Below, in pieces: positions 369 to 40,000 of a stretch of 51,282 bases of DNA (position 1 is its first letter; each line of letters starts with the position of its first letter). The notes below the pieces were generated by a model. That model saw only the letters and a list, made by a program, of their open reading frames with translations, searched no databases and had not been told where the DNA came from. The position numbers were made by a program, and so were the translations under genes. Origin of the DNA: Catajapyx aquilonaris (lineage: Eukaryota); NCBI GenBank assembly GCA_000934665.2, contig KZ538724.1, forward strand, positions 1 through 51,282, written 5' to 3'.

Positions 369-3300
369 TCAACCATCAATCTCTTCATCTCCCAGGCCTG
401 TAATCCATGGTTCCAGTACAGGTACTATTAGTACCTCCTGTCCTTTGTCTTCTATCTCCTTGTCCTCAATCTGAAAATCCTCCTGTACTTTGTCGCCTTT
501 CTCTTTGACATCAATCTGAAAAGTCATGTGTCTCTGGCACAGATCCTGCAAAGGACAAAGAAAAGGTTTTAATATGCAGATCCAAGCAGCTTTAGGAGAG
601 GTAGACTATATCTTCTCACAGTGACATTGAGGCTGTGTTTCAGAGTGTTTCTTTCCTCACTCCCTTCTGGTAGTGGAGGCTTGCTCCTCTTCAACTCCCA
701 CTCCTGCAGTCGTCTGTGAGCTCTTAGGATGGGAATGTTGCTGGTCCTAGCTATATCATCCATATCCCTGTAAGCTTCAAGATACCCAGGCACGAAGCAC
801 TTCTTCCTTTGTTCATATGTGTCCTTCTCCTGGATCAGATCTGATCCTCTCAAAGATTGGAGCACCTTAGACTGACTTTCCTGGATGTACTTAACTCTTT
901 GCTTCTCTAGGAAAGCAGCGCCTGTGAGCAGCATCATATCTGGAGAAACAGGCCGCACTTCCTCTCTCTCCAACTCATTGCGAACCTCCTGCATGGCCTC
1001 GCCTGCTTTCAAAACTAGGAAGTTCTCTATCAGAAGAGCAGTCACAGCATCCTCCTTATCCAAATGTAACTTGCTATGCTCTGTTAAGTAGTGGTACAAT
1101 GAATAAATCTTGGGGCGAAGAGCCCCAGGAAGAGTCAGCAGAGAGGGTCCAGGTTCAATGGCTGCTGGGGTGAAGTTATGGAGAAACACTTCAAGGTTGC
1201 CTGCTAGTGGCAGTTCTGTTTCTGAAATGTAAAAAACATCTCATGTTATTCCACAGAGATATACAGTATACAGAGACATCAACATTTCTAAATACAGATT
1301 AAATCATTTCTGATCAATCTGTCACATCACTCCAAATGAACTCACATGAACTTATGAATCACTAGAAACTGGAAAATAGAGCAGGAATGCAAAGAGGTAC
1401 GGTATGGTGATTAAATTTCTTCCCTTACCCATAACCCATTACAACTCTTCTTGGTTGGTTTGTATTTGTATGCTTTCCTACTAATGCATCCAGAATAATG
1501 ATTTGAAATGGGGGAGGTGTGGTGGCCTTGATGGTAACGTCTCGGCTTGCTGTGTGAAAGGCCCCAGGTTCGATCCCCGCCTGGGGAACTTTCCTTTCAC
1601 CTGCGTCAGGAGGGTCTCTGACCTGCACCAAGGAGGTGTCTGGCAACCTAACCTCCTGGGGAACAGCACATGACCCGTTTTCAGACGTGCACTTGCACCC
1701 ATGTTCCCTCCCCGAAAATCCCCATCCTTACCTCTTGTCCTTTCATCCTTGCACCGGTGTTAGAAGAAAATAATAAGAAAATTTAAGGAAAATGGTGGTA
1801 ATCCACCCCCCTATAAGGGCCCATGGCCCTAGCACGGGGTAACGTAAAAAATAAAAAAATAAATAAAAAATAAAATAAAAATAATGATTTGAAATTCCTT
1901 TCTCTGACCAGAGCCACAAGAATAGATGTGGCTTAAAGAGAGTCCAAAATTACTCAAAAGATACTCATGGTTCCTCAATTGGAACTCTAAGGCTTTGTTG
2001 TACCATGACAGCTGGCGCCAAAAGTGAAGACACAGTAAGTCGCATTTCCTGCCAAAATCAGTTATCGTCACCATCGAATGCTTCTTATCGAGATGCACCT
2101 AATGTACGAGAAATGAGAGAACGCTCTAACGTCATCAAGGTTCCATAGAAATACCCTCACAGAACAATATGAGTAAACAGTGTCAACAAAAAGCAACAAT
2201 GGAAGAAATGATGACTTCAGATCGTTCTACCATTTTCCGTACACTACTGGTATTTTTTTTTGTAGATCTAACTTCAGTCTAAGGGCCAGTTGCACCGGCC
2301 TCAGTATAACTTAGAACCTCGGGTGTAACAAAAATTGCCATAGCAATCATTGTTGGTCAACAATGATTGCTATGGCAATTCTTGTTATACCCGAGGTTCT
2401 AAGTTATACTGAGGCCGGTGCAACTGGCCCTTTAATAGACTCTAAGCTGAGGAAAGGCTGAAACGAAAACACAGTAAGAGCCACCCTGTGCACTTTTGGT
2501 TGTCTTGAGAATTTATTTCCCACAAGTTTGTTTCACTAAACTACTTACTGTGTTTTCGCTTTTGGCAGCAGATCTTCTCAACCATAGGGTTTCTCCTATT
2601 GTTAACTGTCAGCAACACTGAACTGTTAATGACAAGGGCAATAACCCATGTTTGAGGTTATACCTGTAACAGCAGAATTTGATCCTAAGTAAGTAATGAA
2701 AAGTATAGGTTTGTGCTAGACCTTAAAGGCTGAAAACAACAACAACAACATCACCGTCATGACATTTCCCTATAAGGGGTAGTCAGCGATTATGGGAGCT
2801 GCAAGCTAACCCAAAATATGAACTAAATTAAAACTTGTAAATAGAAAAAAACCTACACACAACCCTTCCCGCCCCTCACCCCTGCCCATCTCAGACAACA
2901 AACACTCAATATTAAATTAAAATATAACACTATGCAACGCAGTACTTTGCGAAATCCCCCCCCCCCCCCNNNNNNNNNNNNNNNAGAGGAATCAGCAACT
3001 GTTAAATTCCTCCAATTGACTAGAAAATTATTTTACCGGTTAGTGAGGAACGCCAGTATTTGTTAAATTCCTCCAGTTGCCTATAAAATTTACAGGTTAG
3101 TAAGGAATAACAGTATCCATTAAACTCTTCCAAATGACTAGAATATTAACAGGTTAGTGAGAAGAATCAGCATCTGGAAATTCATACTCGAACTCTAAGT
3201 GCTGTCCAGGACAGAACAGAGAGAGGCAGATACCCTTACAAGCATTACTGTGCAAGAGATATATGCCAACCTGGTAGTTCTCCACATGATGTGCAGAGAA

Positions 3301-3979
3301 TTTTAAGAATAATAATAATTCATACCCCTTTATCAGCCTATCAGCTCTTTAGGGGGGAAGTTTTGTTTTGCCTGGAACTCTTGGCTTTTCATTTTACTGC
3401 GCTTTTTGGGATAGGATAGGGACGGAAGGAAGCGGCTGTGGCCTATTAATTACGGAAACAACTCCGGAATTTTCCTGGAAGGACCGTGGGAAACCACAGA
3501 AAACACGGTCAGAGCTGCCGGCCCCGGGATTTGATCCCAGGACCTGCCGATTAGCAGTCGGACACCATATCCCCTACATCCGCATACACTGTAAGCTTAT
3601 ATAAATGCTGGGGGCTTAATAACATACTTGTTATCCTTCCATCCTTGTCCCTGCTCACACCAAGCAAGGCTTCCTCCTCCCTCCACAGCTGGCAGAGAAC
3701 AGTAGCAATTGACTTCCCATTATTAGAGCTCCTCCATGTCAGCAACTGATCCAATGCAGCAGGGCAGTCTACCATGTCTGCCAGGCATCCCAGAAGGGGG
3801 ACGTGAAGAGGTTGGATGCTCATTGCTAGGATATCCAGCAGCAGGAACAATCCCTCATAAGAGAGGAATCCCTCCAGGCTAGGGAGGCAGCCCACCACAC
3901 AACTCCATGCACACTCCACCACACAGACACCTAACCTGCAAGGCATAATCATATTCTACATGGAAGGAAAGTCATGTCA

Positions 3980-4031
<52 letters not shown>

Positions 4032-7000
4032 TTTAACAAGCAGCTGTAATTCCATTGGCAACTTACCTTTGGAAGGAATGGTTTATTTTATTTTATTTCA
4101 TTTTTTATTTAGAGTACCCTTTTATGGGATCTTCAGGGGAACCTCTGCCCCTATTTACATTTGAATCAGAACCATAACCAATAATTTTACATTTTTTTTT
4201 TTAAAGAAATTTGAGGAAAGGTTTTGTATATTAATCACTAAGAAGGTGATCGCTAGGGGTAAATGACCTTTAAAGTAAGATTCTGTGCCTTGTATCAGGC
4301 ATATTTCAGCATAACTCCGGTATAGCTTCTGGAATTTTCCAAATCCGCCATGTCTCGCTGCTTCAAAGTCGCCAGGATTTGTGGGAGAACAATCGAAATA
4401 TCAACTTTTTCTGCTGGGAGGCAGGGTACATTCAGATCTGCCAATAGTTTATCAAATTGAAAGACCCAACTGTAAGCTGCCTTCGACTCAGACTAAGTTT
4501 CCCGGCTTGCGTATGCCACTGCTAGACCTGTCAAGGACTCAGGTGATTTGTCAAATAACTTGTTACGGAATTTAATCGTCTGGCAAATTAGGCAATATGC
4601 CAGAGGGGGCAAATTTAATTCAATTCTTAAGAAGAAACCTGCCGTAGATCTTGGCAGCAAAAAATACTTTTTAAAGCATTTTGAATCGTTTCCAGTTCAT
4701 AGACATATCATAAACCCGAAATCGGAAGACCATATTACAAAATTGGCACTATCTTCGAATAGAATAACTTCATTGCTATCCCGTAATCCCGGACCTGAAG
4801 GCGAATCAAAAGGGGCCATGAGGAATTGATTGCCGCCATTGCTTTTGCTTTACTCCTTATTTGGAAGGTAAGGTATTTATGTAGTAAACTGGCATGTGCA
4901 GCGCCTATGAGGTTGTGAGGCATAAGAGGTCAACTCAGAACACTAAGGCCCATGTATTGAAAAATTTAATGTATTGTTTGGAATAACCTGTCACACACTT
5001 TTCAGAAATGTGCAATGATTTTTGGAGTGTAAAACACACGTAGTTATGAAAACTCTGTTTGTAACTCACTTTGCCCACAAGAGTGTCTCTTGATTGTGTG
5101 GGCTGATGAGGTGCTTGAGCTGCTTGATCAACAACTCCAGTCCTCCCTCAGTACCAAAAGCCCCCTTCAGAGTGGCATCCTGCTCACCAAAAGAACATAG
5201 CAGAAGGAACCCAGAGTAGAGCTGCTTGAGATCCAATATATCCAACTCTTCATGGTCAAGCACTTGGTCCATGAGTTTCATGAGAGCGGGGACTACTCTG
5301 TGCTCAGTCATGTCAAAAGCAATGTCTGAGTTGTGGGTGGATGAAGCTGAGTAAAGTGCCTCCATACAATTCCACACCATCTCCTTCCCAAAAAAGGATG
5401 GGTGTTTCAGGATGGACACCAAACTATTTGGATTAATGAGGCAATAATCAGCCACATTGGAGAGAAAAGAGCTATAAGGGTATTTTCCAACCATTTGCTA
5501 CACATCACGACATAAAATTTTCCTGACAATTTTCCTCCGTCTTGTTCCATTTACCATTTGAATTTGTATCCAAGAATAACATGTGAGTAGAAAGTAGTAG
5601 GTAAGTAAAGTCAATTATTGCATAATTTGGAATTAAATTACTCAGAGCCTCATCAAGCTCACATGGTTCAGAAACCAGACCAGAAACAATCAGGCAATCA
5701 AATACACGTACTTCTTAGTCCCATGATGTTTGAGATACTCATTGGGCATTTGTGAAATAATTGTTATAAGTGAGTAGATCCCAATCCTCTGCAAGTAGGC
5801 CCTCTGCGAGGATGTCCATGACAGACTTAGAAAGTGCTTGCGTCTTAAAGGTATCCTCCACAACTTTTTCTGGCAGACATCCCTCATTGCAGCACTCTCT
5901 TTGCACCTTTTTATCCTATCACTGTGCCTCTGCCACTCTGGCCTGCTTCCCTCTATTGCACCACTCCCATCACTTGGCACGTCTGTCACCAGAGCAAGGA
6001 TGGAGTCCATCATGCAGCTATTCTCCCAAACCTTGATCCCAATAGAGCCCATTGGAATAAGGGCCTCTAGTATGTTCAGCACTATGGCTATCAGCTCCAA
6101 GTTTCTGTTGCTAGGATGTGACCTGGCAATTATATCCAGGTTCTGGGTGGTGGCAGGTGCGTGGGCTGCAGTTTTCATTATCCCTGGGCGGGGCTTGAAC
6201 GAAGTGGTCAACATGTAAGTGCTGTTGTATGCAGTCAAGAGGTCCCCAGCAAACAAATATGCCAACTCTGAAATAGACAAAAAAAATGGTGTCAATTACT
6301 ATATCATTGAAAAGTTATGAGGAAACATTGTCACTTCTAGAGCATGTGTTAATCTTATGTACACATACATTACTCTAACTAAGGGAGGCGAAGTGGTGCT
6401 TCGGTAAGGTAAAACTGCTGGAAGGCTAACGTTACACCCTCCCCCGGAGATATGGTGCGCCGAATAGGTACCCCAAGCCGCAGGCCTAGAGAAGAGCAAG
6501 CGAAGCGAGTGGTTTTCTAGGCCTGTGTCCTAGGAAAATGCGAGCGGAGCAAGGGTTTTCCTGGTATTGTTTAAACTAACCATGTGCTAAGCCAACATGT
6601 ATGAGTTGAAGCTGTGGGAACACCTGCACCAGGAGCAAGATGATAGCGGCCAAGTCATTGCGCCTCTCTTCATCAGATTCCTTGCAACCCTTCCGGAGAA
6701 AGTACATGAAGCAGTAGGCCAAGGTGCTGTAGAAAAACATGGCAGGGTTAACGGGAGATGCAGAAGGGAGCCATGGGACTTGGAAAGGTATTATTTGGAT
6801 ACCTGAGAGACCTTGCAGATGGATTTAGTTTGGTGGAGTCAATGGATTCCAGAGTCTTAGTAGCAGTCAACAGGGTGAACAAAATATGAATTGCTGGCTC
6901 CACCAAGTCACCTTCAGGGTCAATCAAACAGTGCAACAAAAACTCCACAGCACCTTCTTTGACCAGTTTTTGAGCTGGGGAGTAAGAAATAAAAGAATTC

Positions 7001-10000
7001 CACATATTTGACAACTGTCAGCATTGCAAATAATTTAACATACAGGTATCAAATATAGTTGCCAATTGAGGTACTCAGGCGTAAACCTTGGTATATACCA
7101 CAAGATGAAGCTATTTCAGACACAATGAGGAAAATGTTTTTCACTAGCTGTGGTTATAAAGCAACCAACCACTTGGTAGACTGCGTGAGTTGTTATTTTG
7201 AGTCACAAAAATTAGTAATAACTGGTTACCTGGTGATTGGCTTGTGACTCCCTAGACAGAGGGGTTCCTCTTTTGACTAATAGTGGTATACAATATTGCT
7301 CTGTTGTTAATTTTGTTGGTGGAGGAAATAGGAGAACTCTTAGAAAACCCATGTTAAAATAGAGAGAACCTATAATGAAACTTGTTCATGAGAAATTTCC
7401 TCTGTCCGATCTGGGAGGTCCAACTCAGGGTCTCCAAGGTGATCCAAGGTGGTCCATGGCTGCTGTACCAACTCTTACTTTGGGTTCATTTGGAAGAGGA
7501 GAAAATGCCATGTCCAGCTTTACATCCCTATTCCTTTCTATCAGTGGCAAATTGAGTTATAGTAATGGCTGATCACTCCAGAAGGGACTGTAAATTTTCC
7601 ATACGTCACTAAAAAAGGCATGAAGACTGTCATATACTGCACCAATATTTTGTTTCTCTGGGAAGCACCTAGTACATGCAAAAAATACTTAGAAGAAGGG
7701 GTCCACATTTCGACCATGCACCTAATTCCGACCACCATGCTATATCCATGGTAACGCATTGCAAATTGCCGGTGACAGTGGTAAAATGTCACAAAGACGT
7801 AATTGGTGAGCTGGCAGCACTGATGCGAACATCCGCGCATTGTGGAACCTTTGACACCAGTTTGTTCTTAAGCGCATGGTGGACTGCAGCGCATGCTATT
7901 ATTCGCTATCATTTCCCAGCAATTAACCTATGCTATTCAATAATTTATTTTAGCCTATGATGTTGCTTACACTGTTTATTTGCATGTTTTAAAGTATTGA
8001 CATCATGCTGCAACTTGTCGATGTGAACCAGCAGCCCCAGTAGAAAGTTGTCCTGTTCCTAATTTCGACCACCTAGGCATTCCTAATTTCACGAATAACG
8101 TACTATCATGCTCATTTTGACAGTTCCATTTATTTCGCGGAAACTCAAGAAAGAAATCACAGAAAACGTTTGTATGATTGTATTGATCAAGTCATTATTC
8201 AACAGCATAATTTATTTATTTTACAAATAGGGAAAACTTTTCATTTTCATCATGCATATAAACCAGTTTTCATTGTATTGCTATTAATCAAGCATTTTAA
8301 AGCATTCACAAATTTAGAAATGTTCTTTTACACCTTTTCTCCCATTAAAACGCAGGGGTCAAAATTATGAACATTTTTTTAAAACTGAAATAATGGGTGT
8401 TTTCACTTTTTCAATTTTGTGCCCTTTCCAATAACTTTTGTTAAAATTTTCATTGCGGAATCTAGTAGGTAAATGTTCAATGTATTAACATTAATTTTCC
8501 TTACATTGCTGCGTTCACCCATTTTCTAAGAGGAAGAAAACAACGTAAGGGTTTCAAAATTTGGGCCCCTTACCCTACACAAATTTACCTAAAAGCATTA
8601 GCCTACATATTTTCAGATGGATAGAGAGATCTACCTTGTCTGATGAATAATTCTTTGGCACCAGTGTCCACAGACCATTATGATTAGTTTTAGGCAGACT
8701 TTTCCAACCTTTGTCTGATGTGATAGGCACAAGACGCATCAGAGCCCTAGGAATGCAGTTCTTTGTGCTTCTCATTAGGTCTCTGACGTCACCCACACCC
8801 ATCACCTCATGATGGTTACGTTGCTTCCAGGTCAAGACTGACAGAAAGTGAAAACTAAGTGGAGGTCAAGCGAAAATATCTGGTTTAAAAAAATTTGCAT
8901 TTATTCAGAAATGAACATTTCAATATTCAGAATGTTTCCTTTAACCTACTTAGAATCCTACATAACATATCTGAATGTTGGTGCCTCCTTAAAAATTGTT
9001 ACATCATGCACAAGCACATTGCACTTTTGACATACCTGTAATATTACCAGTCAATCATATTTTTTACCATATTACGCACCTCTCAAAATTACGGATGATC
9101 CTTCCAATCTATTATTTGCATTAATATTTTAATAACTTACAACTGCTTAAAAATAAGCCCTCTAGTTATTGTTAACTATTAGGGACATTTAAATATGATT
9201 AGTGTCTGATATAGCTGCATCTTACACTAATATTGACAAGTTCACAATATTGAGTTGAGCATGAACTGATTAAATTAATTGGATCATATCATGAGCTCAG
9301 GCAAAGATATATCACATGAAGTGGCGGAGATATCACTTATGCTGCAAATGTTAAGTATCATCGCCAGGATATAAAATGTGTACATTCAATTATTCTATGT
9401 TCTTGAAATCCGTCTAATTGGAAAGTTTGACGATTTACAGTTTTACACCCAAGAATTTAAAAAGTTCTACTGCACTGCTGTCACTGGATGTCTAGGTGAT
9501 TATCATCCAATATCAAGGCCTTAATGACCAACTAGCAACTTTTAAAAATTTGATTACATTAACAGTTTAATTTGTACAAATTACATATTTCGGGTGTCAA
9601 TAGAGATTTAATTATTTCACTTTGAATCAGGCAGTCTTTCACTCACCAATGATGGTTGATTTGGACACAATAATCCTCAACAGCTTCATCATCTCTTCAA
9701 TTATGTCAAAGGTCTCTGCCAGCTTCATGACCTGCAGCACAATTGATGGAAGTTCGCTCTCCTCAAGGCACTTTGTCATCATTTTCAATGGTGCAGGCAG
9801 CCAGCTCCCATCAGGACTCACTTTCCTGACTGAGTTATTCAAGTCAAGAATGCTTGTTATGGCACAGTAGACAGTAATGTGCACCTCGTAGTGCTCCGAC
9901 ACCAAGTAGCTTCCCATAATTGAAAGGAGGTCCCGAAAGGCATAGTCATACTTCAGTTCATCTGAACGTAACTTCATGCAGAGTGGACAGCTCAATTGAT

Positions 10001-10427
10001 CTATAATGCTTAGAAGCATGAACAAGTATCGAGTGTCTTCATTTACCCTTGCCTCGACGTGAGACATGACGCAAAAAAGATATGGCAACTCTCGTAGGGG
10101 AATTCCATCCTTCTTGATGCAAGCGAGATACAATTCAAGCAACCGCCCATGACGATCCACCATGTCCATTGACCATGGATCTCTCATGAGCTGGCACAAC
10201 TGTCGCAGGTAGGCCACACTAGTCTTGTTCAAATCAGATGGGTCCAAATGCATCTCACTTTTATTCTCTTCTGTTTCACTCATATCATCCTTCCGCTCCA
10301 ACACCTCATCATCATCTTCAACCAGCTCATCTGCCTTACCTTCAGAAACATCCTCAGGAGGCTCCACTTTGAGCAGGCTCAACTCATCCTCCAATTCACT
10401 CACAGTGCAGGAACATCGCAGGGACAT
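369..10427 (-). CDS. CFAP69: Cilia- and flagella-associated protein 69 (ARM-repeat, ~1047 aa). Exons 10427-9647, 6974-6803, 6726-6581, 6267-5712, 5471-5070, 3935-3628, 1221-620, 545-369
   Basis: Exon peptides match remembered CFAP69 motifs: 'CAWSCVVGC...FLSYEGLFLLLDIL...LWREEEALLGVSRDKDGRI', 'RRNDLAAII' and 'LRPKIYSL...EDAVT...FLVLKAGEAMQEV...LEREEVRPVSPD'. All junctions are GT-AG and phases join into one frame (3144 nt). The 5471 acceptor and the last intron (619-546) are the least certain; without that last intron the CDS stops at 569. Confidence 0.88.
1510..1879 (+). mobile_element. tRNA-derived SINE with A-rich tail and 16-bp TSD
   Basis: A box TGGCCTTGATGG, B box GGTTCGATCCC, (A)nT tail at 1846-1879, and TSD AATAATGATTTGAAAT at 1494-1509 and 1880-1895. 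Confidence 0.9.
2101..2245. mobile_element. Decayed ~140-bp MITE, inverted copy of 45508-45648
   Basis: Core 'acgtcatcaagg..ccctcacagaacaat..gagtaaacagtgtcaacaaaaagc.acaatg.aagaaa.gatgac' is the reverse complement of the ELYS-intron copy. Confidence 0.7.
2283..2430. mobile_element. Near-perfect 148-bp palindromic MITE (GGGCC termini, PIF/Harbinger-like)
   Basis: Arms GGGCCAGTTGCACCGGCCTCAGTATAACTTAGAACCTCGGG...CCCGAGGTTCTAAGTTATACTGAGGCCGGTGCAACTGGCCC with a 2-nt spacer; flanked by TAA on the left and TTT on the right. Confidence 0.85.
2970..2984. other. Assembly gap (15 N) after a poly-C run
   Basis: The N run is visible in the sequence. Confidence 0.99.
2985..3183. repeat. Minisatellite with ~57-59 bp unit, about 3.5 copies
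   Basis: Repeated 'gaggaa..cag.a.tgttaaattcctcca.ttg.cta.aaaatt..ac.ggttagt' starting at ~2986, 3045, 3101 and 3159. Confidence 0.8.
3400..3582 (-). mobile_element. tRNA-derived SINE fragment of the widespread insect 'ggaaggaagcgg..gtggcct..tttcctgga..ggaaaccac' type
   Basis: Minus-strand B-box-like GGGATCAAATCCC in a tRNA-like head; the body resembles SINEs remembered from polyneopteran insect genomes. Confidence 0.6.
3982..4023. repeat. (CT)n microsatellite
   Basis: About 21 perfect TC units. Confidence 0.95.
6378..6565 (+). mobile_element. Helitron-like fragment with two tandem 3' hairpins
   Basis: Hairpins caggcctag..gcgaagcgag..ctaggcctg (6481-6525) and aggaaaa..gcgagcggagc..ttttcct ending CTGG|T. 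GCGAAGC-loop hairpins before CTRR are typical of insect Helitron 3' ends. Confidence 0.45.
7691..8575. mobile_element. Decayed pogo/Tc1-like non-autonomous element
   Basis: Left end 'aaggggtccacatttcgacc' versus right-end reverse complement 'gggtaaggggcccaaattttgaaac', with TA after the right end. Internal repeats 'cctaatttcgaccacc' at ~7721 and ~8058. Confidence 0.45.
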
Positions 10428-10955
10428 GGTTCAAACCTGTCATAAAAAGTTTTACTAATGAGGAAATAAAGAAAAATTATATTACTACAGTCATGGCTAA
10501 TATTTATTACATTAAAAGGGGAAAAAAAATGAGATCATTCATGTTCAATACATGAAATACTGCACCAGGATTCAGTCATCTCCGTAACACTCAGTACAAC
10601 ACAAAAAGGGGAAGAAAAGAAAAAGGTTCAAAAACCTGCTGGACACCTCAGTATAAAACTTGTGTAGTTAAATGTTGTCTCCTTGAAACAGATCACAACA
10701 TAACAATTCAGAGGGGGGGAAAAAAGCTGTTAAGAGAGACATATCAGTAATGCAACTTGGGAATATCAATGTCTGCATCTAGATTCACTCCCTGCATGTC
10801 AGATTTTTTTCTCCTGCGACACCACCTTCAAATCAACTTGTCACTTTTAAACCTATGCTAAAACTCTTGGTCCTGAATTTTATGGGGGGATTATGCATGA
10901 GGACTTGTTACAAAGTGGCACTTCATTTGAAATGTAGCACAACAGCAGTCTTTCT

Positions 10956-11696
10956 TTACTTAAGTTGATTGGTGTACTCGTCAAGTTCAGCATCTAACTC
11001 TTCGGCAGTAGGAACACGCCGGGTCTGGCCACCTCGAGCACCACGTCCACCTCGTCGTCCACGTCCCCATCCACCACTCATGCCTCGACGCGGCCAAAAT
11101 CCACGCCCACGTCCACCACCACCACCACTGGTGCCTCCACCTGCAGCTCCAAGATACATAGGGGCATGCATGGGGGCCACTGGGACTTCAGACGTTGCCA
11201 GCTGGATCTTCATAGGGCGACCATCCAACGGCACACCCGTGTACTGCTTCATGGCCTTCACCGCATCAGCCTGCCTCTCAAACGTCACATCAGCAGTGCC
11301 CAGGGACCGCCCGGACCGATCATAGTGCACGGCAGCGGAACGAAGCGGTCCAACCTCAGCAAACAGCTCCTGTATATCGAAGTCGGACACCCCAAAGTCC
11401 AAGTTGGACACCATGAGCTTGCTGGAAGCCAGCAGACCCTGGACACCCGGCTTGCTGCCAAAGTCGTTGAACTTGCCTCGCTGCCAGGGCCGGTTGTTGT
11501 AGCCCCTCATGTACGGGGCCACCCTGCCAACTGCGCCTCCCCTCCTCAGGGTGCGGACGGGCCCAAACCCATCGCCCCTGCCTCCACGGCCGCCTCTTCC
11601 TCTCCAGGACCCCCTGGTACCTCCGCGTCGTCCCCCACGCCGGGTACGGTTCTGCTGGATGATGGCGTCCAGGCTCAAGTCGAGGTGGCTCACCAT
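10956..11696 (-). CDS. ALYREF: THO complex subunit 4 / Aly-REF export factor-like, single exon, 246 aa (probable retrocopy)
   Basis: N-terminal UBM 'LDLSLDAII', RGG region, RRM '[20 protein letters not shown]...[19 protein letters not shown]...[14 protein letters not shown]', second RGG region and C-terminal UBM '[13 protein letters not shown]'. The ORF is uninterrupted. Confidence 0.95.
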
Positions 11697-11895
11697 GATT
11701 CTGCTGCCTCTGCTCCAAACGGCCGGACTCGAACGTCAAGTCAGGGGTCGGGTTGTGGGTAACGTCGATGGGGTCGGGGATGGGGGCTGGGAGAAGGCGG
11801 ACAGCAATGCAGGGAAAGAGCGTCCCGTGGTTTCCTCGCAGAGTTTCAGTCAGGTTTCAGTGGCAACAAACGCCTCGGGACAACTCAGCTGATGG

Positions 11896-11919
11896 GCGCA
11901 TGCGCATTTTGCATGCGCC
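11896..11919. promoter_or_regulatory. NRF1/Ewg-type GCGCATGCGC sites upstream of the ALYREF-like gene
   Basis: GCGCATGCGC at 11896-11905 and GCATGCGC at 11911-11918, about 200 nt upstream of the ATG. Confidence 0.5.
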
Positions 11920-12517
11920 AATTGTAGCAGCTCTTAATAACGGCTAATTAAGTATGCGCTATGCAATTAGTGAATGGGAGTGTCTTCAGCGGTCTTTAGT
12001 CTTTACAGGTACGACAGGAATACGACTTTGGAAAACGCCTATAGAGGATCTATAGGCATGAAATTGCTCGCTAATAGTGTGCTAAATTATGCAACGTACT
12101 GCTTGCTTAACTCAACTGCTATGTACATAACAGCATAACTATATTTCTAACTGCTATGTTACAGCCGGGTACAGTACGGTACTGATCACGGTGGTACTGA
12201 TGTACTGTATACATGAAATGATGCGACTTGCTGCGCCAACAGGTGCAATCGGGCACAACATATGTAAATATGACACCATCAGATACTAAAAGACACCAGA
12301 CACAATGCGGCTTGCGCACGTGCTGTAAACAATCTCGAATGTCAATGCAGCTAATGGTTGTTTGTTCCCATGCAGATAGTTTTGAGTTTAATCTGGTTTC
12401 GGCCGGTCCAGCATAGGAATTCCGACTGAACATTACACTTCCTAAATCGAACCTTAAGGTTTCGCGAATTTCAACTGTGAAAATAAATCGTCCGAATATG
12501 AGCTACGCACACGTTAC

Positions 12518-12780
12518 CTCGCCTTGCATCACGTGCTGCAGCCCGCGCAAATATTTCTCTCTTCCCAACTCCGTCCGTCCACTGCACTACAACTCCCCAA
12601 GCAAAAATCGAACGCCACTGAAGTACGATACCCGTACCCGTATTTTCTCAATGTAACCATGACAGCTCGATGCAACATCGGCAACATCGCACAACAGGGT
12701 GGCCCTCTGATTGGCCATTCCGAATGAGCCCAACCAATAGGAGAACCCCGGCTGCAAAAGCAAGGGGCAAAACCAATGTT
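12518..12780 (-). promoter_or_regulatory. Candidate promoter and non-coding first exon (CCAAT cluster, X-box-like site, donor at 12517)
   Basis: CCAAT/ATTGG boxes at 12710, 12734 and 12773; RFX X-box-like GTAACCATGACAGC at 12653-12666; minus-strand donor GAG|GTAACG at 12517; CpG-rich. Confidence 0.4.
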
Positions 12781-13605
12781 GAATCTGCAACCATACGATT
12801 TGTCCTGAATGCGCAAAAAAAATGCAAATATTGACGTAATTATTTTTTGCGAATATTTTGCAAATATTTTGTAGTGATGTAGTGTACTGACAGTAGATAG
12901 TACCAGTACCTATACTTCCTGCTACCCCCCCTTCAGTACTGCTCCCCCTGCCTCCTCATCACCTCATTAGCAGAAAGCCCGTCATAAACCAAGGCCGTCG
13001 ACCACCAGCCGCAGCAAATGTGACTCACTGCATGGGTTGAACCGCTGGCTGGACCATCGAAGCTTCTTCACACTCCGTATCTCATCTGTGTACACACAAA
13101 CTTGTAAGCCATGCAACAACTGCCCACCATAAACCCGCCCACTTTCATATACTAATCAAGTGATAAGATCTGGCCCCTGGTTTGGGGTCAAACTGCCACA
13201 GAGCAGTCAGTTTTTTTTATCTGCCCAGTTGAGTGCATGTCAGGTGACGCTCTGGTGGGCACCAGTTTTCGCTACCTGGTATCTAGAGTGTGACCAAGTC
13301 TCTCGGGGAAGTGTTGTCTCGCAGTGTTGAGCCCAGTTGCAGAAAATGGTGTTTGCAGGTACTGTCAGGAAGGGTTACGTAACTGACATTTAACTGGCAG
13401 GAGTGATGGGTTGTGAGGAAATGGTGGGTGTGGCCAGTCTTGTCAGCCGTTATATGATTAGGGCGGGTGGCTAGTCTTTCTGTGCATTGCTCGGTCTTGT
13501 TTCAATGAGCTAGATTGCTGGGAAGCCCGTAGAGCAGCTTAAGACCTTGCAGATTATGATTACAACAGTTGTTGATGATTTAATTTTTCCTCAGGAGTGA
13601 CCAAG

Positions 13606-16600
13606 ATGTTAGCCTCAAGACATGGGTCCACAAATGCAGATCCGTTGGACCCCAACTCGGTGGAATGTGTGGTTCCGCCAACAACTACCAAACGGGGGAG
13701 TGGAGGAGAGAAGGCACCGCTTTTGAACCAGAGGCGCTTTCCATGGCGGTTGCTGGGGAGCCTGCGGTACTCCTCGTCGTCTTCGGCTGCGCCTGGAAAT
13801 CCACCTGCTGAACAGCCGACTGCACGGACTCTCAGCACGTTTGCTGGGGTGTTTTCACCTGTCACATTGTCCATGTTTAGTGCGCTTCTCTTTTTACGAG
13901 TGGGATATGTCATTGGAAACGCAGGGCTTCTGGAATCACTCATTCAGCTTGCCATCGCCTACTCCATACTTGTTTTTACTGTCACTTCGATCTGTGCCAT
14001 TTCCACAAATGGAGCAGTGGAGGGAGGAGGTGCTTACTGTATCCTTTTGTGCTGTTGTGTACATTATCAGTTTTTATCTCTCATAGTGCTACTTTTTATG
14101 CATAAACACAGATACAGGAAATTGACACCACTCATATCCTGTATGAAAGTCCATATTTTGCAATTGTTTTCCTTGACTAAATTATTTTATAGTCATGGTG
14201 AGCCGGACTCTTGGTCCTGAACTTGGAGGGTCAATTGGGGTGCTCTTTTTCTTTGCTAATGTAGTCAGCAGTGCCCTCTACATTGCTGGCTGCACTGAAG
14301 GTCTCATCCAGAATTTTGGGCCATCAGGTATGAAGGGCATGTTGTTTTATTGTAGAGATAGTTGCAATTATGTGATTACATGTAAGAAGGAAACAAATTA
14401 TGACAAATTAGGACCATGTGAAATTATTAAATGTACGCGTCCCTATCTGACTCGTTATAAAAGCAGCGTGACTGCCCTCCTAATTTAGACTTCCTGGTGG
14501 CTGCTCTTCATATCAGTGATAAACCGTTTTCCAGAGGGGTGTGAGTTTCTGGTTCAGTATACAAATCTCATCTTGACTACATCACAACCTCATTTTCTAA
14601 CACATCCTTAAAAAATTTAAATCAACAAGTGGTGCTTTGTCATAGCTGTAAAGGACATGGAGCTTTTCAAAGCTGATTGCATAAGAAGGGGAATTATTGT
14701 TTAGCTCTGCAAGTGTTTACAAACAGATAAGAATAATAGGGGTGTGTGCCTGAGACCATCCAACATGATTGGCAGCTACATTGGAATGATTAAGCCACAC
14801 GTGAACCATATATGCTGAGCATCTGTAATAGTTGCTATCAGCTTAATACATGATATCCATTAAATATGAACATAATGCAAATTGCAAAGTCATTGTTAGG
14901 CAGCAAATTTAGTACTTTTAATTGACACCTTTGTAATATAGGATTATAGGTTACACTCGTAACCTGCATTTCACATGAATTTATAACAAGTGATCCTTAT
15001 TTTCAGGGTACTTGTTAAGTGAAGGTGAGACTATTCTGCCCGACGGTCGGATGTGGCGCTTTCTTTACTGCTCTTGCCTGAACACACTTGGCCTGTTTGT
15101 CTGTCTTATTGGTGCCGCAATGTTTGCCAAGACCAGTGTCATCATCCTGGCTGTTGTATGCATCTGTCTCTCATCAGTGATTATCAGCTTTTTTGTGGAA
15201 GGCCCGAAAGAGGTGAGTTACTGCACCATCCGGATGCTGTATGACACTGGGAAAAATTCATTCCACTGTCACCCACCCAGCAGGCTTGCGTGGCATTTTA
15301 AATACATGCAGCCAGTGTGGCATAGATTGATAGTTTTCTCCGTTTTCAGGTTGGCCTTCCTGCATCCAACACACTAGTGCAGAATAGTACTCATCCAGTG
15401 AATGGCACGTACACTGGCCTGAGTTCTGAGACACTCCATGAGAATTTTTTCAGTGGATATAGTCGAGACTATACCATGGATGGGCAGCTGGTGGACTTTG
15501 CAACTGTATTTGGTGTCCTCTTCAGCGGTCTGACTGGAATAATGGCAGGTGCCAACATGTCTGGAGAGCTCAGAAATCCAGGACGTAGCATCCCCAGGGG
15601 AACTCTCTCAGCGATTGCTTTCACTGGATTCGTCTACGTGACATTAGCTCTTCTGACTGCAGCCACGTGCTCACGATTCCTTCTTCAGAATAACTACATT
15701 TACATGCTGGGTGTAAACCTGTGGTCACCATTTGTCACCATTGGTATAATCACTGCCACATTCTCAGCAAGTTTGAGCAACCTGATTGGCTCTAGCCGAG
15801 TTCTAGAGGCTGTGGCAAAGGATGAGATATTTGGATGTGCCCTTAACTTTGTCGTCAAGGGCACCACAAAGGGCGGGAATCCAGTGGTTGCCGTGGTCGT
15901 TGCCTGGCTGCTAGTGGAGCTCTTCCTCATGATTGGATCTTTGAACCTGATTGCACAGCTGAACTCGGTCCTGTTTCTGCTGGCCTACCTGGCCATGAAC
16001 ATGGCTTGCCTTGGTTTAGATCTGGCTTCTGCCCCAAACTTTCGGCCTACATTCAAGTACTTTGGATGGCACACTGCTCTGATTGGTTTGCTTGGGACTG
16101 TCACCATGATGTTTGTCATCAACCCAGTCTACGCCAGCTTAAGCATGGTTGTCTGTCTAGTGCTGGTTATTGCCCTTTACCTCTTCTCACCAACGAGGAG
16201 CAACAATTGGGGATCAATCAGTCAAGCTCTCATCTTCCACCAGGTCAGTTGGCAGTGTTGTTAATATTACAATTTCTCTGCTCACTCAAATGCAACTTGT
16301 GCCTTGTTCTTCATCAGGTACGCAAATACCTCCTAATGCTGGACTCTCGTAAGGACCATGTGAAGTTCTGGCGCCCCCAGATTCTACTTTTGGTTTCGAA
16401 TCCCCGTGCCGCCTGCCCACTGATTGACTTTGTGAACGACCTGAAGAAGGGTGGCCTGTACGTTCTGGGCAATGTCAAAGTAGGGCAGTTTGAGCAGATG
16501 GAGACGGATCCTACTTTGGAGGAATATTCATACTGGCTTTCTCTGGTGGATCACCTCAAAGTCAAAGCATTTGTGGAGCTTACTGTTGCTCCGTCTGTCA

Positions 16601-34047: not shown

Positions 34048-37000
34048 ATGGAACTCTTGTTATCTCCAGTTGAAGTTCACAAGCAAGGAACATTTGGAGA
34101 TGTCATTCATGCCAACCTCAGTGGAGCTGGTCCTGACATGGTCAAGAGGGGAAAAATTTTAAAGGGTAAGCAGCCACTACAATTGATCACACAGTTACAG
34201 TTACACATCCTACCATGAGCATATTAAGTTAAATGTATTTTAAAAAGTAATGGGACATAGGGTTCTTATGTATAAAAGTATTTGCTGACTGACAAAAAAA
34301 TAAAATTCGCTTATAATGTCCAACATATTTATCATTTTAGATGGAGTTCGTGGGTGCATGAGCTGTGGGTTCCAATTAGTTGTGTTCAACCTGGTCACGG
34401 GACAGCCTCTCAACAAATGGAACTTACCATGTGGCCCTTCAAGGGAATTTGAACCTGAATTGGTGTCCGTGGTGGAACTGTCTGAAGATGAGTTATGTCT
34501 AGGACTAGACTGTGGTGTTGGTGGAATGGTCTGCGTTGTGGAATACTCTGGGTCTGTCTTGTCCAGGTATGATAAAGGATCAGATTTTGGATTTATTAAA
34601 AGGGCCATCAACAGCTAGGCCAAGATTGCAAGCATACTATGTTTAGAAGACGTATACCTTAGCCTTTGCAGCAGATGAAACATACTCTGCATATGAACTC
34701 ATAGCACTAATGTTGATGCATTTTATACAGGGTGGTCGGTAAATGGTGCGCAAGCTTCAGGTAGTGAGATTCTTTGGGAAAAACCAGTATATGGAAGTGA
34801 AGGTCCTATTGCTCTACGATGCCTGGTTAGAGCTCACGAGACCTCCAAAGTTTGGGCCAAATCATGACGTCACATCCGCCAGCGAAATTCAAACACTACC
34901 ATATTGCTACTGTCTGCGGTGTGTTGCCAGGGGTTGCCATGTTGACATCCCGTACGCTAGTGTTTGAATTTCGCTGGCGGATCTGACGTCATGATTTGGC
35001 CCAAACTTTGGAGGTCTCGTGAGCTCTAACCAGGCATTGTAGAGCAATAGGACCTTCACTTCCATACACTGGTTTTTCACAAAGAATCTCGCTACCTGAA
35101 GCTTGCGCACCATTTACCGACCATCCTGCTTATTTATTTACCTTAGTCTGGAAGGGTTTGCTTGTTGCCTAATAATTTCCTGTATGCTGTACTTGGCATC
35201 ATTGCAAATGATAGGTCTTGCAAGTTATTATACAGTGTGCCCTGAATTTCTGTGGTAACATGATGTTTATTTCTTCTGGTCACAGATGCATTCAGATACC
35301 ATTCCGTGTTACTTCCCTCGCCTTGGTTCACCTGCCAGAGGAGAAACATTTACGGCACCTCAGTCCTGATTTGCAAAGCTTTTGTGGGACTGTGGCTGTT
35401 GGCACATATGACGGACAAGTTCTTATGTTGGACCTTGAGTTTGGAAAGGCATCCAGAGCCAGTAGAGATGTCCACGCCTGCTTTCCCATAGTGGGGATGT
35501 CACAAAGGCTGACAGGAAGAGATGGACAGAATCAGGTCACAGCCATGGAGTTTATTCCACAGCTCCTCAGTCTAGCCATTGGATTCAGTGGGGGTGCATA
35601 CCATGTCGTTAGCATGACCAACCTGCAAGAGTGAGTTGATATTTTGCATGAATTCTAAATTATTATAACTGCAGTATTTATTTTGGGTGCAATTTTAACA
35701 AAGGAAACCCTTGAAAGAGGCCCAAAGCTTGTAATCCGTTTTTCTGCTTGCTTTTAATCAATCACTTATACCAGAAAATTACAATATTATTGACTCATCC
35801 AAAATCACACCACATGTGTGTATGGTGAAACTTTGTAATGTGAGCCTCCAAGGGTCAGGAGAAAACGTCGAGTCATATGGCATTTGACAACACATTTCAG
35901 GACAGATTTCTGACATTATACTCTCTTGACTGTCAGGATTTGCTCTGGAGGATGTGAAGAGGTGGGTGCTCCTGTCACCCACTTTGCGTTTCAAGAACCT
36001 GAGAATGACCCTTGCCACTGCTGCTACTTGTGGGTGTCACATAGTAATGGAGCAGATGTAGTGGAAATTGCACTCTATGCACTCATCTTTGGCCACAAGG
36101 ACTTTATGGATGAAATTGGATTTGTGTACAGGGTGAGTTGAAATGTGGTTGGGTGTGGGGATCAGTTGGGGGTAAGAGCATAATATTAAACTAATGGAAT
36201 GGTAAATAGTACTTTTCTGTAATCAAGACCACAGTCGTCGGGTGAGATCAATACTATTGTAAGTCACAAAATAGTAGTTTCACAGGAAAAAATTTTGAAA
36301 GTGTTTTACTCTGTGCAGCTGGACATACAATAATTTCGTTCTAGTGATGTCACAGGCGCATGGTGTAAGGTGGACTTGAAATAAAAATTCAGCAGATACG
36401 TCTCTTAGAGTAGAATATGGTGGTGGACTTACCCTGAAATTGAATTTCTTGGACTTACAATAGTATTGATCTTACCCGACGATATCTGAACACCAAATTA
36501 ATGCTTATGGTGGAGCAAATATGTTAGAACTTTGTAGTGTTTCCTAATCTATTGTAACACTCAATTAACTTGAGTTGTGGATTATTTCAGTCCCTGCACC
36601 AGGTAAGGCTGCGCTTCTGGCACAGCCTCCCAGCCTCGTGTCGCATGCTGTCTTGCCAGGTAGTCCCCAATCCTTGGGGTCCAGCCAGCCCAACCAGTGA
36701 GTCTCATCCAGTCCAGGTGGACGACCTCAACTTTTGCCTCCTAGTGTGGCAGGGCAGCACACCATCACCCGACAGCAGGCCATCCACGTCATACGTCCAT
36801 CTGGCCCTTTTTGACCTTAACATGTGGTATCTGGCCCACATGCCCGACAGCATGGCTTCTCCCTATGAGACTGAGGAGCTTTGCCCGTACGTTGGGTACT
36901 TCTCACTCCGAGGAGTAAAGTCAGTCCTGGATGTGGCTATTAGGAAGAAGACACTCACAAAGTTTCTGCCATGTACAAAGTTGACTGAGGAGCAGTACTA

Positions 37001-40000
37001 CTATCCCAGCAGCCTTTCCTTTGGTGAGAACATTTTTGCTTCCTTTGAATCGGTGGAGTAAACCTAAACCTCCTTCAACAAGTTGACTGCTGTGAAAATC
37101 CAGCAGACATTACCTAGCTAAAAAAAAGTGCAGTGGCATGTTCCTGGCTCATATGGAAGGTCAAAATCTATGCTACAGTCGTTACCTCTGGGCTTTAAAC
37201 CAAACCCTTTAGTTGTTCACTAATGTTAGCCTTATCTTCAAACAATTTTTATATTGCATTTGTTATTGTTGTTGTCATTGTCCTGTTTTGATTCATACCT
37301 TGTTTTATTCTGGTTGGAGGGTAAGAGTTAATCATAGTCATTGTATGGGAATTAAATGTGCTGAGTAGTAACTGCTTGTGGTAATTATGTGATGTTTGCA
37401 TGGGTTGCAGAGGTGATGTGTCTGACAGAATCGGGAACCAAGGTGGCCACATTCCTGGGTGCGCAGAGTAAGGTGCTGCATCTGATGCAGAAGGAAGGCC
37501 CCACATGCATTGTCCACCCTAAGAAGGCCACCCATTTGTGCCACGTGGTTGGTCTAATTTCATCTGCAAACTACCCTCATCCAAGCCAAGAGAATAGAGA
37601 AGTGAGTAGTTGTCTGAAGCAACTGAAGTGAATAATACTTCTTTAGGGAATGGAAAGATCAGATTGTATTCACACATTACATTACGAAATAGTTTGCCGT
37701 AGCAATTTTAAGGGTGGGTTGCATCAGTTGTCGTCAAATATCACTTGTCGTCATTGAAATTATTTTATAATACTGAAATATGTAGTGGTTACAGAAAACT
37801 TGTGTTGTTTCCCATGGCAGTGGCAACCAAAAGTTGCTACCTGACTGTGGCGAGTTTTATTCTTGTACTAAATATGGCAGTTGTCAACTGCAATGTAATA
37901 TTTTCTTGTTACAGCAGGTGGTCTCAGTGTAGTGTTAGGTATAGAAATGTTGTGTGACTCATATGTGTTATATGATCCCTCTCTCTGAATCTTCAGGCCC
38001 ACAGTCGAAATGTCCTTTTGGATGTGGCTCTTAAAAATAAAGCCACCAGCCTATTAATTAGATGTGTCACCAGCTGGGCAGATGGAAGCTATGCAGCCTA
38101 TGGATGCACTGTTCCTATGATCATGGAGTGGGCATCAAACCAGGCCAGGATAATCAAGAAATCCATCAATAAGCTTAGTAAGTCTTTCAATAGTGATATG
38201 TGGTCCTGACTTACAGATGAGTTTATTTTCAATGTAGCTGAGCCCTTGTTTAACTACTCTGGAGTGCATCCCAGCTCAGAGGCTATTTCAATGCTGTATC
38301 ATGACTCGAACATGCTCCATCAGCTCAATGAAGTAATGACAGAATGTGAAAAGCGACAGGCAAGATCCAGTGTGTCAGGTTTGTGGTCACAGATTTTTTA
38401 AACAAATTTTGTCTTGAGTCCTGACAGCGCAAAAAAATGTTTGGTCAGGCACCAGGCATCAGTAACAATAACAGTTTATCGCAGGGTGAATGTGTACTAT
38501 GATAATGACAAAAATTCAGGGGCCCTGCCGAGGAGGTTCTGCACATTTTTGTGGAGAAGGGAGGGAGACAAGGATGAATTTGTATGGCCTTGCGCTATGG
38601 ATTATGAATTTTTTTAAAGTAAGTGGCCAAGCAAAAGAGGCTTTTTAACTATCAATGGTTCTGACATTTTCACCCCGGGCTATGGCTTTACAATCGACTT
38701 ATTTATGATTGTTTAATTGTTATTAAGACATAACCAAAACCCAGTTATCTCGTCTATGTGCGTTGGAAAAGGAGGTGGGAAAAGGGGAAGATGGAAGACG
38801 AGGTAAAAGTGAAGATGCTGTGAATTAATGTAGGCTACTGGATCGGTAAATTGCAAATGAATGCGGGAATTTGATGATGGGCACCATGGCCTAATGTAGC
38901 TGGGGAAGGCCAGAAATTTTGGGGAATGCGTAACGTACTTATCATGCTGGAAGTAATGCCCAGGCTCTGACATTGAAATCGACGAATTTTTTGCACCACA
39001 AATGGATAAGATACCTTGGTTTTTCTTGTCTTCATTACAATTATTAAACAATCATAAATAACACGATTATAAAGCCAGAGTCCGAAGTGAAATTAAGGCC
39101 GATGGTTTAAAATGCAATTTTTTTGATTGAACGTTTGCTTCTCCAAAAATATTCTCAATTAGCCTTCATCTTTGTCGCATCTTTGACTCGAGTACCAACC
39201 ATTGCTCGTAGCGCCACAATGACAATTACACATTATGCAGAAGCTTATACCTTTATCATAAGAGCCCCACATGACTTTAAGAGGACGTTGTTAAAGCGAT
39301 GTATTAGCAAAAAAATATGGTAACAATGAAGCCCTTGGTGACGACCTAAACAAACTTGTGTATGCATGGGCAGCATAATTATGGAGATTCGACATCGTCT
39401 ACATTTCTGCGGCCGTACGTCCGCAAAAATGGTTCAATCAACACAGAAATTGCACCTAAAAATAGTAGATGATCTGGTGCTTTTCCATTTTTGGCCTAGA
39501 AGTGACCTTTTCATCGAGTTGAAGAGAGAGGAAAATGGCGTCTCCGAAAAGTCAATTTGATTAACATGGCAGACGAAATCGCGTGAAAATCAGACACATT
39601 TCTGCGCCTGTCTGTACGTCCACAATTTTAAAAAGTTCCCTCGAAAATGCGACTACCAGTAGGCTGCCGCATTTTTGCTAATGCGCCACCTTAAACTATA
39701 CTCTGATGTCTGATGGGTCAATCTTTGCTGCCTAGTTCCGCTATTCCAAGATGGGCGCCATTCACCTGGCAAAATCGAACAAGGCGCCCTATGCGAAACT
39801 CGCTTCGCCTAGCAACCTGTGTTCAAAAAATGAACAACAATGGGCTCAGCCGCTCCCGCGGCAGATGCTGAGTTTAACAACAACTTGTTTACCTCCGCTG
39901 CTGCAGCCTCTGAGTTTAACAACATCCTCGAAATAAATTTTCTGTCATTTCCTGATAATATTAACTTGTAGGGGCCCCGCATCATTTTAGCAGTTGGAAA

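What the first reader, a model, noticed from the sequence alone, without database searches (positions are those of the whole stretch)
10436..12780. ALYREF-like gene appears nested, same strand, in the 5' UTR intron of CFAP69
Seen: the CFAP69 ATG (10427) is 9 nt into an exon that starts at a splice acceptor (tttttatgacAG at 10438-10437), so a non-coding first exon must lie upstream. The only minus-strand AATAAA after the ALY stop is at 10508-10503, about 65 nt from that acceptor, which leaves little room for a separate promoter. A donor (GAG|GTAACG, 12517), a CCAAT cluster and an X-box-like GTAACCATGACAGC (12653-12666) lie upstream of ALY. Known: RFX/X-box sites drive ciliary genes. Inference: CFAP69 splices over the whole ALY gene, so ALY polyadenylation competes with CFAP69 splicing, and the retrogene may use a ciliary/sperm promoter.
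Basis: partly seen in the sequence, partly recalled or inferred. Interest (0 to 1): 0.7.

Follow-up and report, generated by a model that had tools for sequence, protein, structure and literature searches.

The report
ALYREF retrogene wedged against CFAP69's start
An old, transcribed, intron-free copy of the mRNA-export gene ALYREF sits on the same strand just in front of the sperm-tail gene CFAP69, its poly(A) signal only 76 bases before CFAP69's start codon, so CFAP69 likely starts upstream and splices over the whole copy, an arrangement already known from mammalian retrogenes.

Summary
All motifs are at the stated coordinates. ALY (11696-10956, minus) is a real retrogene: its parent elsewhere in the genome has four introns, the pair are sisters in a tree, dN/dS is about 0.13, and an RNA contig covers it. 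Three blocks of the parent's 3' UTR survive in order, down to the poly(A) signal, so retro-derived DNA likely ends about 73 nt before the ATG of an intact 1047-aa CFAP69. The gap has 2 CpG in 528 nt; the nearest CpG-rich, promoter-like stretch is 11.7-12.9 kb. Nesting is therefore likely (about 0.62) but not shown: no junction could be tested. Corrections: the 10437 acceptor, the 12517 donor and the X-box are each chance-level. A much stronger acceptor lies at 10455, and its pyrimidine tract is where ALY's downstream poly(A) element would be. The best donor is at ALY's own start codon (11693). A ciliary promoter for ALY is unsupported; it has an NRF1-like site of its own. Known kind (Utp14b/Acsl3, Taf9/Ak6); the scan has noted like cases in other genomes (shark HSCB/ASTE1, octopus MDN1/NSUN2), not this pair.

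The parts
369..10427 (-). CFAP69 coding region, 8 exons (10427-9647, 6974-6803, 6726-6581, 6267-5712, 5471-5070, 3935-3628, 1221-620, 545-369), open frame of 1047 aa
   Evidence: Pfam PF21049 in 4 stretches; hand-built GT-AG model, open throughout; RNA piece 9852-10090
10437..10438 (-).
10455..10483 (-). Stronger predicted 3' splice site: branch-like TAAT (10483-10476), pyrimidine tract 10478-10457, AG 10456-10455; the same U-rich tract lies where ALY's downstream poly(A) element would be
   Evidence: best 9 of 6460 AGs; 3 of 212 AATAAA have its equal downstream; dual role inferred
10500..10513 (-). ALY poly(A) signal AATAAA (10508-10503) with flanks matching the parent's distal signal at 13 of 14 positions
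   Evidence: 0 of 208 other AATAAA sites match; RNA contig stops at 10492 (weak hint only)
10585..10604 (-). 20-nt 3' UTR block identical to the parent's 3' UTR
   Evidence: exactly 2 matches in the 285.6-Mb genome, reversed control 0; same RNA record as parent coding sequence
10859..10875 (-). Second conserved 3' UTR block (16 of 17 to parent; core present twice in the parent UTR)
10956..11696 (-). Intronless ALYREF/THOC4 retrogene, 246 aa; WxHD motif changed to WQRG
11688..11696 (-). Donor-like ATG|GTGAGC at ALY's start codon (GT at 11693), best-scoring minus-strand donor in 10440-13300; rival first-exon end for CFAP69
   Evidence: sites this good occur 0.94 per kb per strand, so not beyond chance; use untested
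11787..11811 (-). Acceptor-like site 90 nt before the ALY ATG (could join an upstream exon to ALY)
   Evidence: 159 of 6460 AGs score as well; the RNA contig runs through it unspliced
11896..11918 (.). NRF1-like palindrome plus half site, the only one in the window; candidate ALY promoter, followed by an ATG-free leader (11900-11697)
   Evidence: motif recalled
10492..12250 (.). One unspliced, unstranded RNA contig of 1759 nt with no differences
   Evidence: run X1
12518..12620 (-). Candidate non-coding first exon of CFAP69 (start guessed at an Inr-like TCAGT, donor GT at 12517)
   Evidence: untested
12653..12839 (.). Candidate bidirectional promoter: X-box-like site 12653-12666, three CCAAT boxes 12710-12777, CRE-like site 12832-12839, inside the CpG-rich stretch 11697-12900 (o/e 0.85-1.18)
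13575..13608 (+). SLC12A9-like gene, head to head; ATG 13606 also 11 nt inside an acceptor-led exon
   Evidence: six spliced joints downstream in run X1

Best explanation
An intron-free, transcribed ALYREF retrocopy lies on CFAP69's strand with its poly(A) signal 76 nt before the CFAP69 start codon, and it likely landed inside CFAP69's 5' transcribed region, so that CFAP69 would start in the CpG-rich stretch upstream (11.7-12.9 kb) and splice over the ALY reading frame. Shown: retrogene origin, purifying selection, transcription, parent-derived 3' UTR, intact CFAP69 frame. Inferred: the exon start is more likely 10454 than 10436; the donor is 12517 (my estimate 0.38 overall), ALY's own start-codon donor 11693 (0.2) or another (0.05); the branch point and pyrimidine tract of that acceptor occupy the 50 nt where ALY's cleavage site and U-rich downstream element would lie, so one transcript would be either cut to give ALY mRNA or spliced to give CFAP69 mRNA. 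ALY itself probably uses mainly its own NRF1-type promoter near 11900.
For: Parent gene with 4 introns on other contigs (G000:C6936 and C698). Parent and copy are sisters, 96/93, in a tree of 36 rows (34 chosen from 120 hits); dS 1.78, dN 0.23 over 242 codons; dS 2.19, dN 0.10 over 80 RRM codons. Three colinear parent-UTR blocks at 10875-10859, 10604-10585 and 10513-10500, leaving at most 157 nt and probably 72 nt of non-retro DNA before the ATG. 2 CpG in 10428-10955 (o/e 0.12), against o/e 0.85-1.18 in 11697-12900; 8 of 9 control ciliary loci have a 250-nt bin with o/e of 0.7 or more within 500 nt upstream of their most 5' Pfam match, CFAP69 has 0.2 and 0.1. Strong acceptor at 10455. No minus-strand donor above 0.5 between 10440 and 11690, where sites of 1.2 or more average 3.9 per kb, so an upstream exon most likely ends above the ALY frame. 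One RNA contig bridges 12250 to 10492 unspliced, so RNA extends at least 554 nt above the ALY ATG and beyond the NRF1-like site. SLC12A9 mirrors the layout on the other side.
Against: No junction evidence. The pyrimidine tract is also what a poly(A) downstream element looks like, so it need not be an acceptor. An acceptor-like AG just before an ATG occurs at IFT20 beside its promoter. Both donors are chance-level, and 1 of 6 RNA-proven donors scored -5.2, so a weak donor inside ALY's UTR cannot be excluded. The parent's 3' UTR is CpG-poor too (o/e 0.27), so low CpG may be inherited; two of the nine controls are near-duplicates and DRC1 is also CpG-poor. The poly(A)-flank match was noticed after the fact and TGTA-AATAAA contexts may converge. 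All four candidate junctions put a short upstream frame before the CFAP69 ATG. Later deletions could have brought the genes together (the copy's UTR is much shorter than the parent's). The contig is unstranded and could join a plus-strand RNA.
Confidence: 0.62

Rival explanations
1. Tandem, not nested: CFAP69 has its own compact, probably germline-specific promoter inside ALY's 3' UTR or in the last 70 nt before its ATG, with no intron or a short one; the pyrimidine tract is only ALY's downstream poly(A) element.
For: 10437 acceptor, 12517 donor and X-box are chance-level; IFT20 counter-example; short testis reporters such as -177/+136 work in Drosophila (PMC3674997, passages); a testis retrogene start inside another gene's coding exon is known (UTP14C in ALG11, PMC5750009, passages).
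Against: The promoter would have had to arise inside retro-derived UTR or fit in 72-157 nt; 2 CpG in 528 nt unlike 8 of 9 ciliary controls; no good donor below 11690.
Confidence: 0.27
2. Read-through without cis-splicing over ALY: CFAP69 is made from an ALY-CFAP69 co-transcript, either as a bicistronic RNA or by 3' cleavage coupled to spliced-leader trans-splicing at the acceptor, as in nematode operons.
For: Poly(A) signal, U-rich tract, acceptor and ATG within 90 nt resemble operon junctions (recalled); several genes here have an AG shortly before the ATG.
Against: The tree places the organism among hexapods, where I recall no spliced-leader system; the trait is patchy across animals (PMC3342872, passages). 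An AG of modest score before an ATG is expected 0.46 times per 60 nt.
Confidence: 0.06
3. One reading: ALY is driven by the ciliary RFX promoter at 12650-12780 and is a cilia or sperm-restricted retrogene.
For: The X-box-like site is the only one with at most 1 mismatch in 9600-13600 and lies beside three CCAAT boxes; RIB43A has a related palindrome 219 nt above its match; RNA reaches 12250; acceptor-like site at 11787.
Against: 11 such sites in the window, near the shuffle level; only 2 of 9 ciliary controls have a match, none close to the start; an unspliced leader from 12620 would carry 13 upstream ATGs, while 11900-11697 has none; own NRF1-like site.
Confidence: 0.25

Closest known systems
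Utp14b in Acsl3 (mouse, rat, vole; PMC5750009 passages; PMC10901741 passages)
   Same: Intronless retrocopy of an RNA-metabolism housekeeping gene in the first intron of a host, listed among pairs where the retrogene can trap host transcripts; parent retained.
   Different: There the retrogene is the testis gene and the host is broad; here the presumed host is the sperm/cilia gene. Here the copy's poly(A) signal abuts the host acceptor, and nesting is inferred only.
Taf9 in Ak6 and other host-intron retrocopies (Carelli et al. 2016, PMC4772013, passages)
   Same: Retrocopy in an intron, expressed with upstream host exons or from a shared or head-to-head CpG-island promoter; 13 human and 14 mouse cases reported.
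   Different: No cap or junction data here; an arthropod; the 11693 model would reverse the roles, with the host borrowing the retrogene's leader.
Poc1b/Galnt4, Mbtps2/Yy2, H13/Mcts2, Herc3/Nap1l5 (PMC10901741 passages and section 8; PMC3467052 abstract)
   Same: Same-strand intronic retrogenes whose processing signals or transcription cut short the host RNA; competition of polyadenylation with splicing.
   Different: Those lie in internal introns and act through SAFB masking, imprinting or transcriptional interference; a direct overlap of poly(A) element and 3' splice site is not described in the passages I read.
ALYREF/THOC4 (Drosophila Ref1, ref2; PMC3674997 passages; PMC4797287 abstract)
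   Same: RRM and C-terminal motif; second paralogue beside an intron-bearing parent.
   Different: WxHD, needed for eIF4A3 and CBP80 binding in human ALYREF, is changed to WQRG; 118 of 120 listed homologues and the parent keep it.

Membership tests
Functional retrogene | Lacks the introns of an intron-bearing parent at another locus | tested here: met
   4 parent introns, none in the copy
Functional retrogene | Carries parent mRNA sequence beyond the coding region | tested here: met
   three colinear 3' UTR blocks; no 5' UTR likeness found
Functional retrogene | Open frame under purifying selection and transcribed | tested here: met
   dN/dS about 0.13, RRM about 0.05; RNA contig
Functional retrogene | Poly(A) remnant and target-site duplication | tested here: inconclusive
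   no A run after 10500 in the sequence; no duplication search was run; loss expected at dS near 2
Same-strand intronic retrogene | Same strand as the host, host acceptor downstream | tested here: met
   (sequence only)
Same-strand intronic retrogene | A host exon upstream, spliced across the retrogene | not testable with these tools
   one run of contigs only; nothing laid above 12250
ALYREF/THOC4 | Central RRM with terminal UAP56-binding motifs | tested here: met
   PF00076, PF13865; 165 of 242 aligned residues identical to the parent
ALYREF/THOC4 | WxHD motif | tested here: not met
   WQRG in the copy; a divergent paralogue
RFX (X-box) target promoter | X-box above chance near the start, as in other ciliary genes of the species | tested here: inconclusive
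   chance-level in window; 2 of 9 controls match the recalled consensus, far from their starts
Trans-spliced operon | Common spliced leader on downstream genes | not testable with these tools
   no 5' ends available

The most novel reading that the evidence does not exclude
The retrocopy landed directly on CFAP69's first acceptor, so ALY's inherited poly(A) site and CFAP69's branch point and pyrimidine tract share the same 50 nt: a hard-wired either/or switch in which cleavage factors and U2AF compete, giving an EJC-independent (WxHD-less) export adaptor or a sperm-axoneme protein from one pre-mRNA. In its strongest form CFAP69 now borrows the retrogene's leader and splices from the donor at ALY's own ATG, so the whole ALY frame is a 1.24-kb intron and its start codon becomes a start-stop upstream frame.
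Probability: 0.2. Interest if true: 0.6.

Novelty: new member of a known kind. Interest (0 to 1): 0.36.

Why it matters
If nesting holds, this is an arthropod case of a housekeeping retrogene fixed inside the leader of a sperm/cilia gene, with poly(A) and 3' splice signals overlapping: a 2-kb, minigene-sized test of how cleavage and splicing compete, and of how old retrocopies gain expression without destroying their host. The class is well known in mammals, so surprise is moderate, and the key junction is untested. For annotation, CFAP69's 5' end should not be called without 5' data.

Tried and rejected
RNA: one run was listed, kind not on record ('no RNA holder listed'); it behaves as RNA, with 6 GT-AG joints in SLC12A9 among 11 joints listed. 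It shows no joint from 12518 or 11694 to 10454 or 10436, and no cover of 12251-13950 or 10091-10491. Contigs drop rare forms, so this is no evidence either way; their depths (ALY 20.5, parent 25.7, CFAP69 piece 2.1) cannot rank genes and were not used. Relatives: two searches with CFAP69 exons found none at threshold, the full-library search gave one unrelated-looking repeat hit, the Atlas gave only generic helical-repeat clusters under 0.9, and a metagenome scan with ALY gave 22 distant loci, none with the UTR motifs; no genome without the retrocopy could be compared. Rfam on 10300-13700: one chance-level match. A shared hairpin at the first UTR block was not supported (5 pairs, -3.3 kcal/mol). 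The idea that the 11693 donor was selected for was dropped: the copy's N-terminus differs at several neighbouring residues. X-box as evidence: rejected. Three further B9-domain loci (L031-L033) were fetched but not scored as promoter controls because their first exons were not placed. My first CFAP69 model broke at exon 5 and was fixed by moving the acceptor to 5472. Literature: searches (ALYREF, retrogene, testis; CFAP69, insect, sperm) listed nothing on this pair; the library lacks most subscription papers and no supplements were read.

Full report
Setting. The window is an arthropod contig (G000:C1364). On the minus strand lie CFAP69 (PF21049 in 4 of 5 stretches scanned) and an ALYREF/THOC4 gene (PF00076, PF13865); an SLC12A9-like transporter faces the other way from 13606. 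A hand-built model gives CFAP69 eight GT-AG-bounded exons and an open frame of 1047 aa from ATG 10427; the Pfam model begins at residue 74, so no coding exon is obviously missing in front. In a tree of 36 ALYREF rows (34 chosen from the 120 listed hits) the organism's genes fall with hexapods, outside the neopteran groups sampled, with weak support.

The observation. Several are not beyond chance. By a simple acceptor score, 782 of 6460 AGs in the window equal or beat 10437, and six RNA-proven acceptors scored 4.5 to 14.5 against its 5.2. The TAG at 10456-10455 scores 12.6, among the best 9 of 6460; of 212 AATAAA sites in 157 kb of this genome, 3 (this one included) have such an acceptor 20-75 nt downstream, against 85 for the 10437 level. 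A branch-like TAAT sits 21-28 nt above it, so 10454 is the likelier exon start (inference from scanning to the first AG). The 12517 donor scores 1.2 (3.9 such sites per kb per strand); the best minus-strand donor in 10440-13300 is ATG|GTGAGC at ALY's start codon, 4.0 (0.94 per kb); nothing between 10440 and 11690 exceeds 0.5. The X-box-like site is one of 11 in the window, 17 strand matches against 8.8 +/- 3.2 in shuffles (consensus recalled).

ALY is an old functional retrogene. A search of the genome gave one close paralogue among 7 matches. It has four introns: exons on C6936 (6815-7057, 12129-12293, 12354-12501, 12578-12727) and a last exon on C698; one 3716-nt RNA record carries letters of both contigs (compared). 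The window copy has none of the introns. Parent and copy are sisters (96/93), the copy on a branch about four times longer; dS 1.78 and dN 0.23 over 242 codons, dS 2.19 and dN 0.10 over the 80 RRM codons. The copy has WQRG for WxHD, kept by the parent and 118 of 120 listed homologues (lead from e1-7708396); in human ALYREF that motif is needed for eIF4A3 and CBP80 binding (PMC4797287, abstract).

How far the insertion reaches. A 20-nt block at 10604-10585 occurs exactly twice in the genome, here and in the parent's 3' UTR. A second block at 10875-10859 and the poly(A)-signal context at 10513-10500 match the parent's UTR in the same order (parent offsets 1188, about 1558 and 3228). The last match is 13 of 14, met by 0 of 208 other AATAAA sites, but I noticed it after the fact and its sliding-window score alone is not significant (p 0.14). 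So retro-derived DNA reaches firmly to 157 nt and probably to 72 nt before the CFAP69 ATG. CFAP69's older promoter cannot have lain in that DNA: it was pushed upstream, or a new one arose inside the UTR, or later deletion closed the gap.

Where a promoter could be. 10428-10955 holds 2 CpG (o/e 0.12), while 11697-12900 is a continuous CpG-rich stretch (0.85-1.18) with an NRF1-like palindrome at 11896-11918, three CCAAT boxes, the X-box-like site and a CRE-like site (motifs recalled). Of nine ciliary control loci from this genome (IFT20, BBS5, two B9 copies, IFT57, IFT46, RIB43A, RSPH3, DRC1), eight have a 250-nt bin of CpG o/e 0.7 or more within 500 nt above their most 5' Pfam match; CFAP69 has 0.2 and 0.1. 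Limits: starts are not mapped, two controls are near-duplicates, and the parent's UTR is CpG-poor as well (0.27). Only 2 of 9 controls match the 14-nt X-box consensus, far from their starts, so RFX control is not validated. IFT20 has GACAG 11 nt before its ATG about 100 nt below three CCAAT boxes, which shows that such an AG does not force an upstream exon.

RNA. The single run listed is spliced at six SLC12A9 introns. One contig with no differences bridges 12250 to 10492 unspliced, and a 239-nt piece lies in CFAP69's first coding exon. So both genes are transcribed, and RNA runs through the 11693 donor, the 11787 acceptor-like site and the NRF1-like site. The junction itself could not be tested.

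Mechanism. Most likely (0.62) the copy sits inside CFAP69's 5' transcribed region. CFAP69 would start in the CpG-rich stretch, shared head to head with SLC12A9 (whose ATG also lies 11 nt inside an acceptor-led exon), and splice to 10454 or 10436 from 12517 or from ALY's start-codon donor. By established 3'-end rules, cleavage falls 10-30 nt below AATAAA (10493-10473) and a U-rich element follows; here those positions are the predicted branch point and pyrimidine tract, so cleavage and splicing would exclude each other on one molecule (inferred). Each of the four junctions leaves an in-frame upstream frame of 1-5 codons that stops 3 or 24 nt before the CFAP69 ATG. ALY more likely uses its own NRF1-type promoter: the leader below 11900 has no ATG, whereas an unspliced leader from 12620 has 13. 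The main rival (0.27) is a compact CFAP69 promoter inside ALY's UTR; trans-splicing or a bicistronic RNA is a minor one (0.06).

Comparison with what is known. Same-strand intronic retrogenes are an established class: Utp14b in the first intron of Acsl3 (PMC5750009, passages), Taf9 in Ak6 among 13 human and 14 mouse host-intron cases (PMC4772013, passages), Galnt4/Poc1b, Yy2/Mbtps2 and Mcts2/H13, which trap host transcripts when SAFB is lost (PMC10901741, passages and section 8), and Nap1l5/Herc3 (PMC3467052, abstract); PMC7290577 (passages) counts 22 same-orientation human cases near host 3' ends. Two searches found nothing on this gene pair. The scan has noted similar first-intron retrogenes in other genomes (unchecked) and no look-alike of this stretch. 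The retrogene is a confirmed member of its class; nesting is probable; the overlap of poly(A) and splice signals is the one feature that could make it a variant. Verdict: new member of a known kind, interest 0.36.

Noticed in passing
window 10859-10875 and 10585-10604 (-); G000:C698:7870-7890, 8975-8995, 9346-9365: Two short ALYREF 3' UTR blocks stay nearly identical between parent and retrocopy although synonymous sites are close to saturation, so they are probably selected regulatory elements; the first occurs twice in the parent. No Rfam match, no supported common fold.
   Followed up: partly
window 11470-11490 (-), ALY residues about 70-74: The retrocopy has lost WxHD (WQRG) and evolves about four times faster than its parent; a possible EJC-independent export adaptor.
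   Followed up: partly
window 11900-13594 (+): SLC12A9's non-coding first exon is unmapped; plus-strand donors at 12009, 12836, 13104 and 13424 are candidates, so the NRF1-like site could also be bidirectional.
   Followed up: partly
window 546-619 (-): The long CFAP69 ORF 569-1240 ends in a stop that is probably intronic; a 74-nt intron leads to a last exon of 58 acidic residues ending near 369.
   Followed up: yes
G000:C1679:64547-65264, C1305:47441-48173, C2113:45878-49839, C7061:6733-7008: A B9-domain ciliary gene is present in at least three close copies, two with nearly identical promoters, plus one with a stop; recent duplications.
   Followed up: no
G000:C6839 and C1309:2307-2639; C1577:26285-26833: IFT46 has a second match on another contig with profile positions 101-211 in one open frame, and RSPH3 lies in a 460-codon open frame; possibly more retrocopies or intron loss among ciliary genes.
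   Followed up: no
window 35215-50699 (+): ELYS/AHCTF1-like gene (PF16687 at 36558-37058) with long acidic C-terminal exons.
   Followed up: no
L009 (G000:C6936:15001-18291): Long nested inverted repeats in the last intron of the parent ALYREF, probably fold-back transposons.
   Followed up: no
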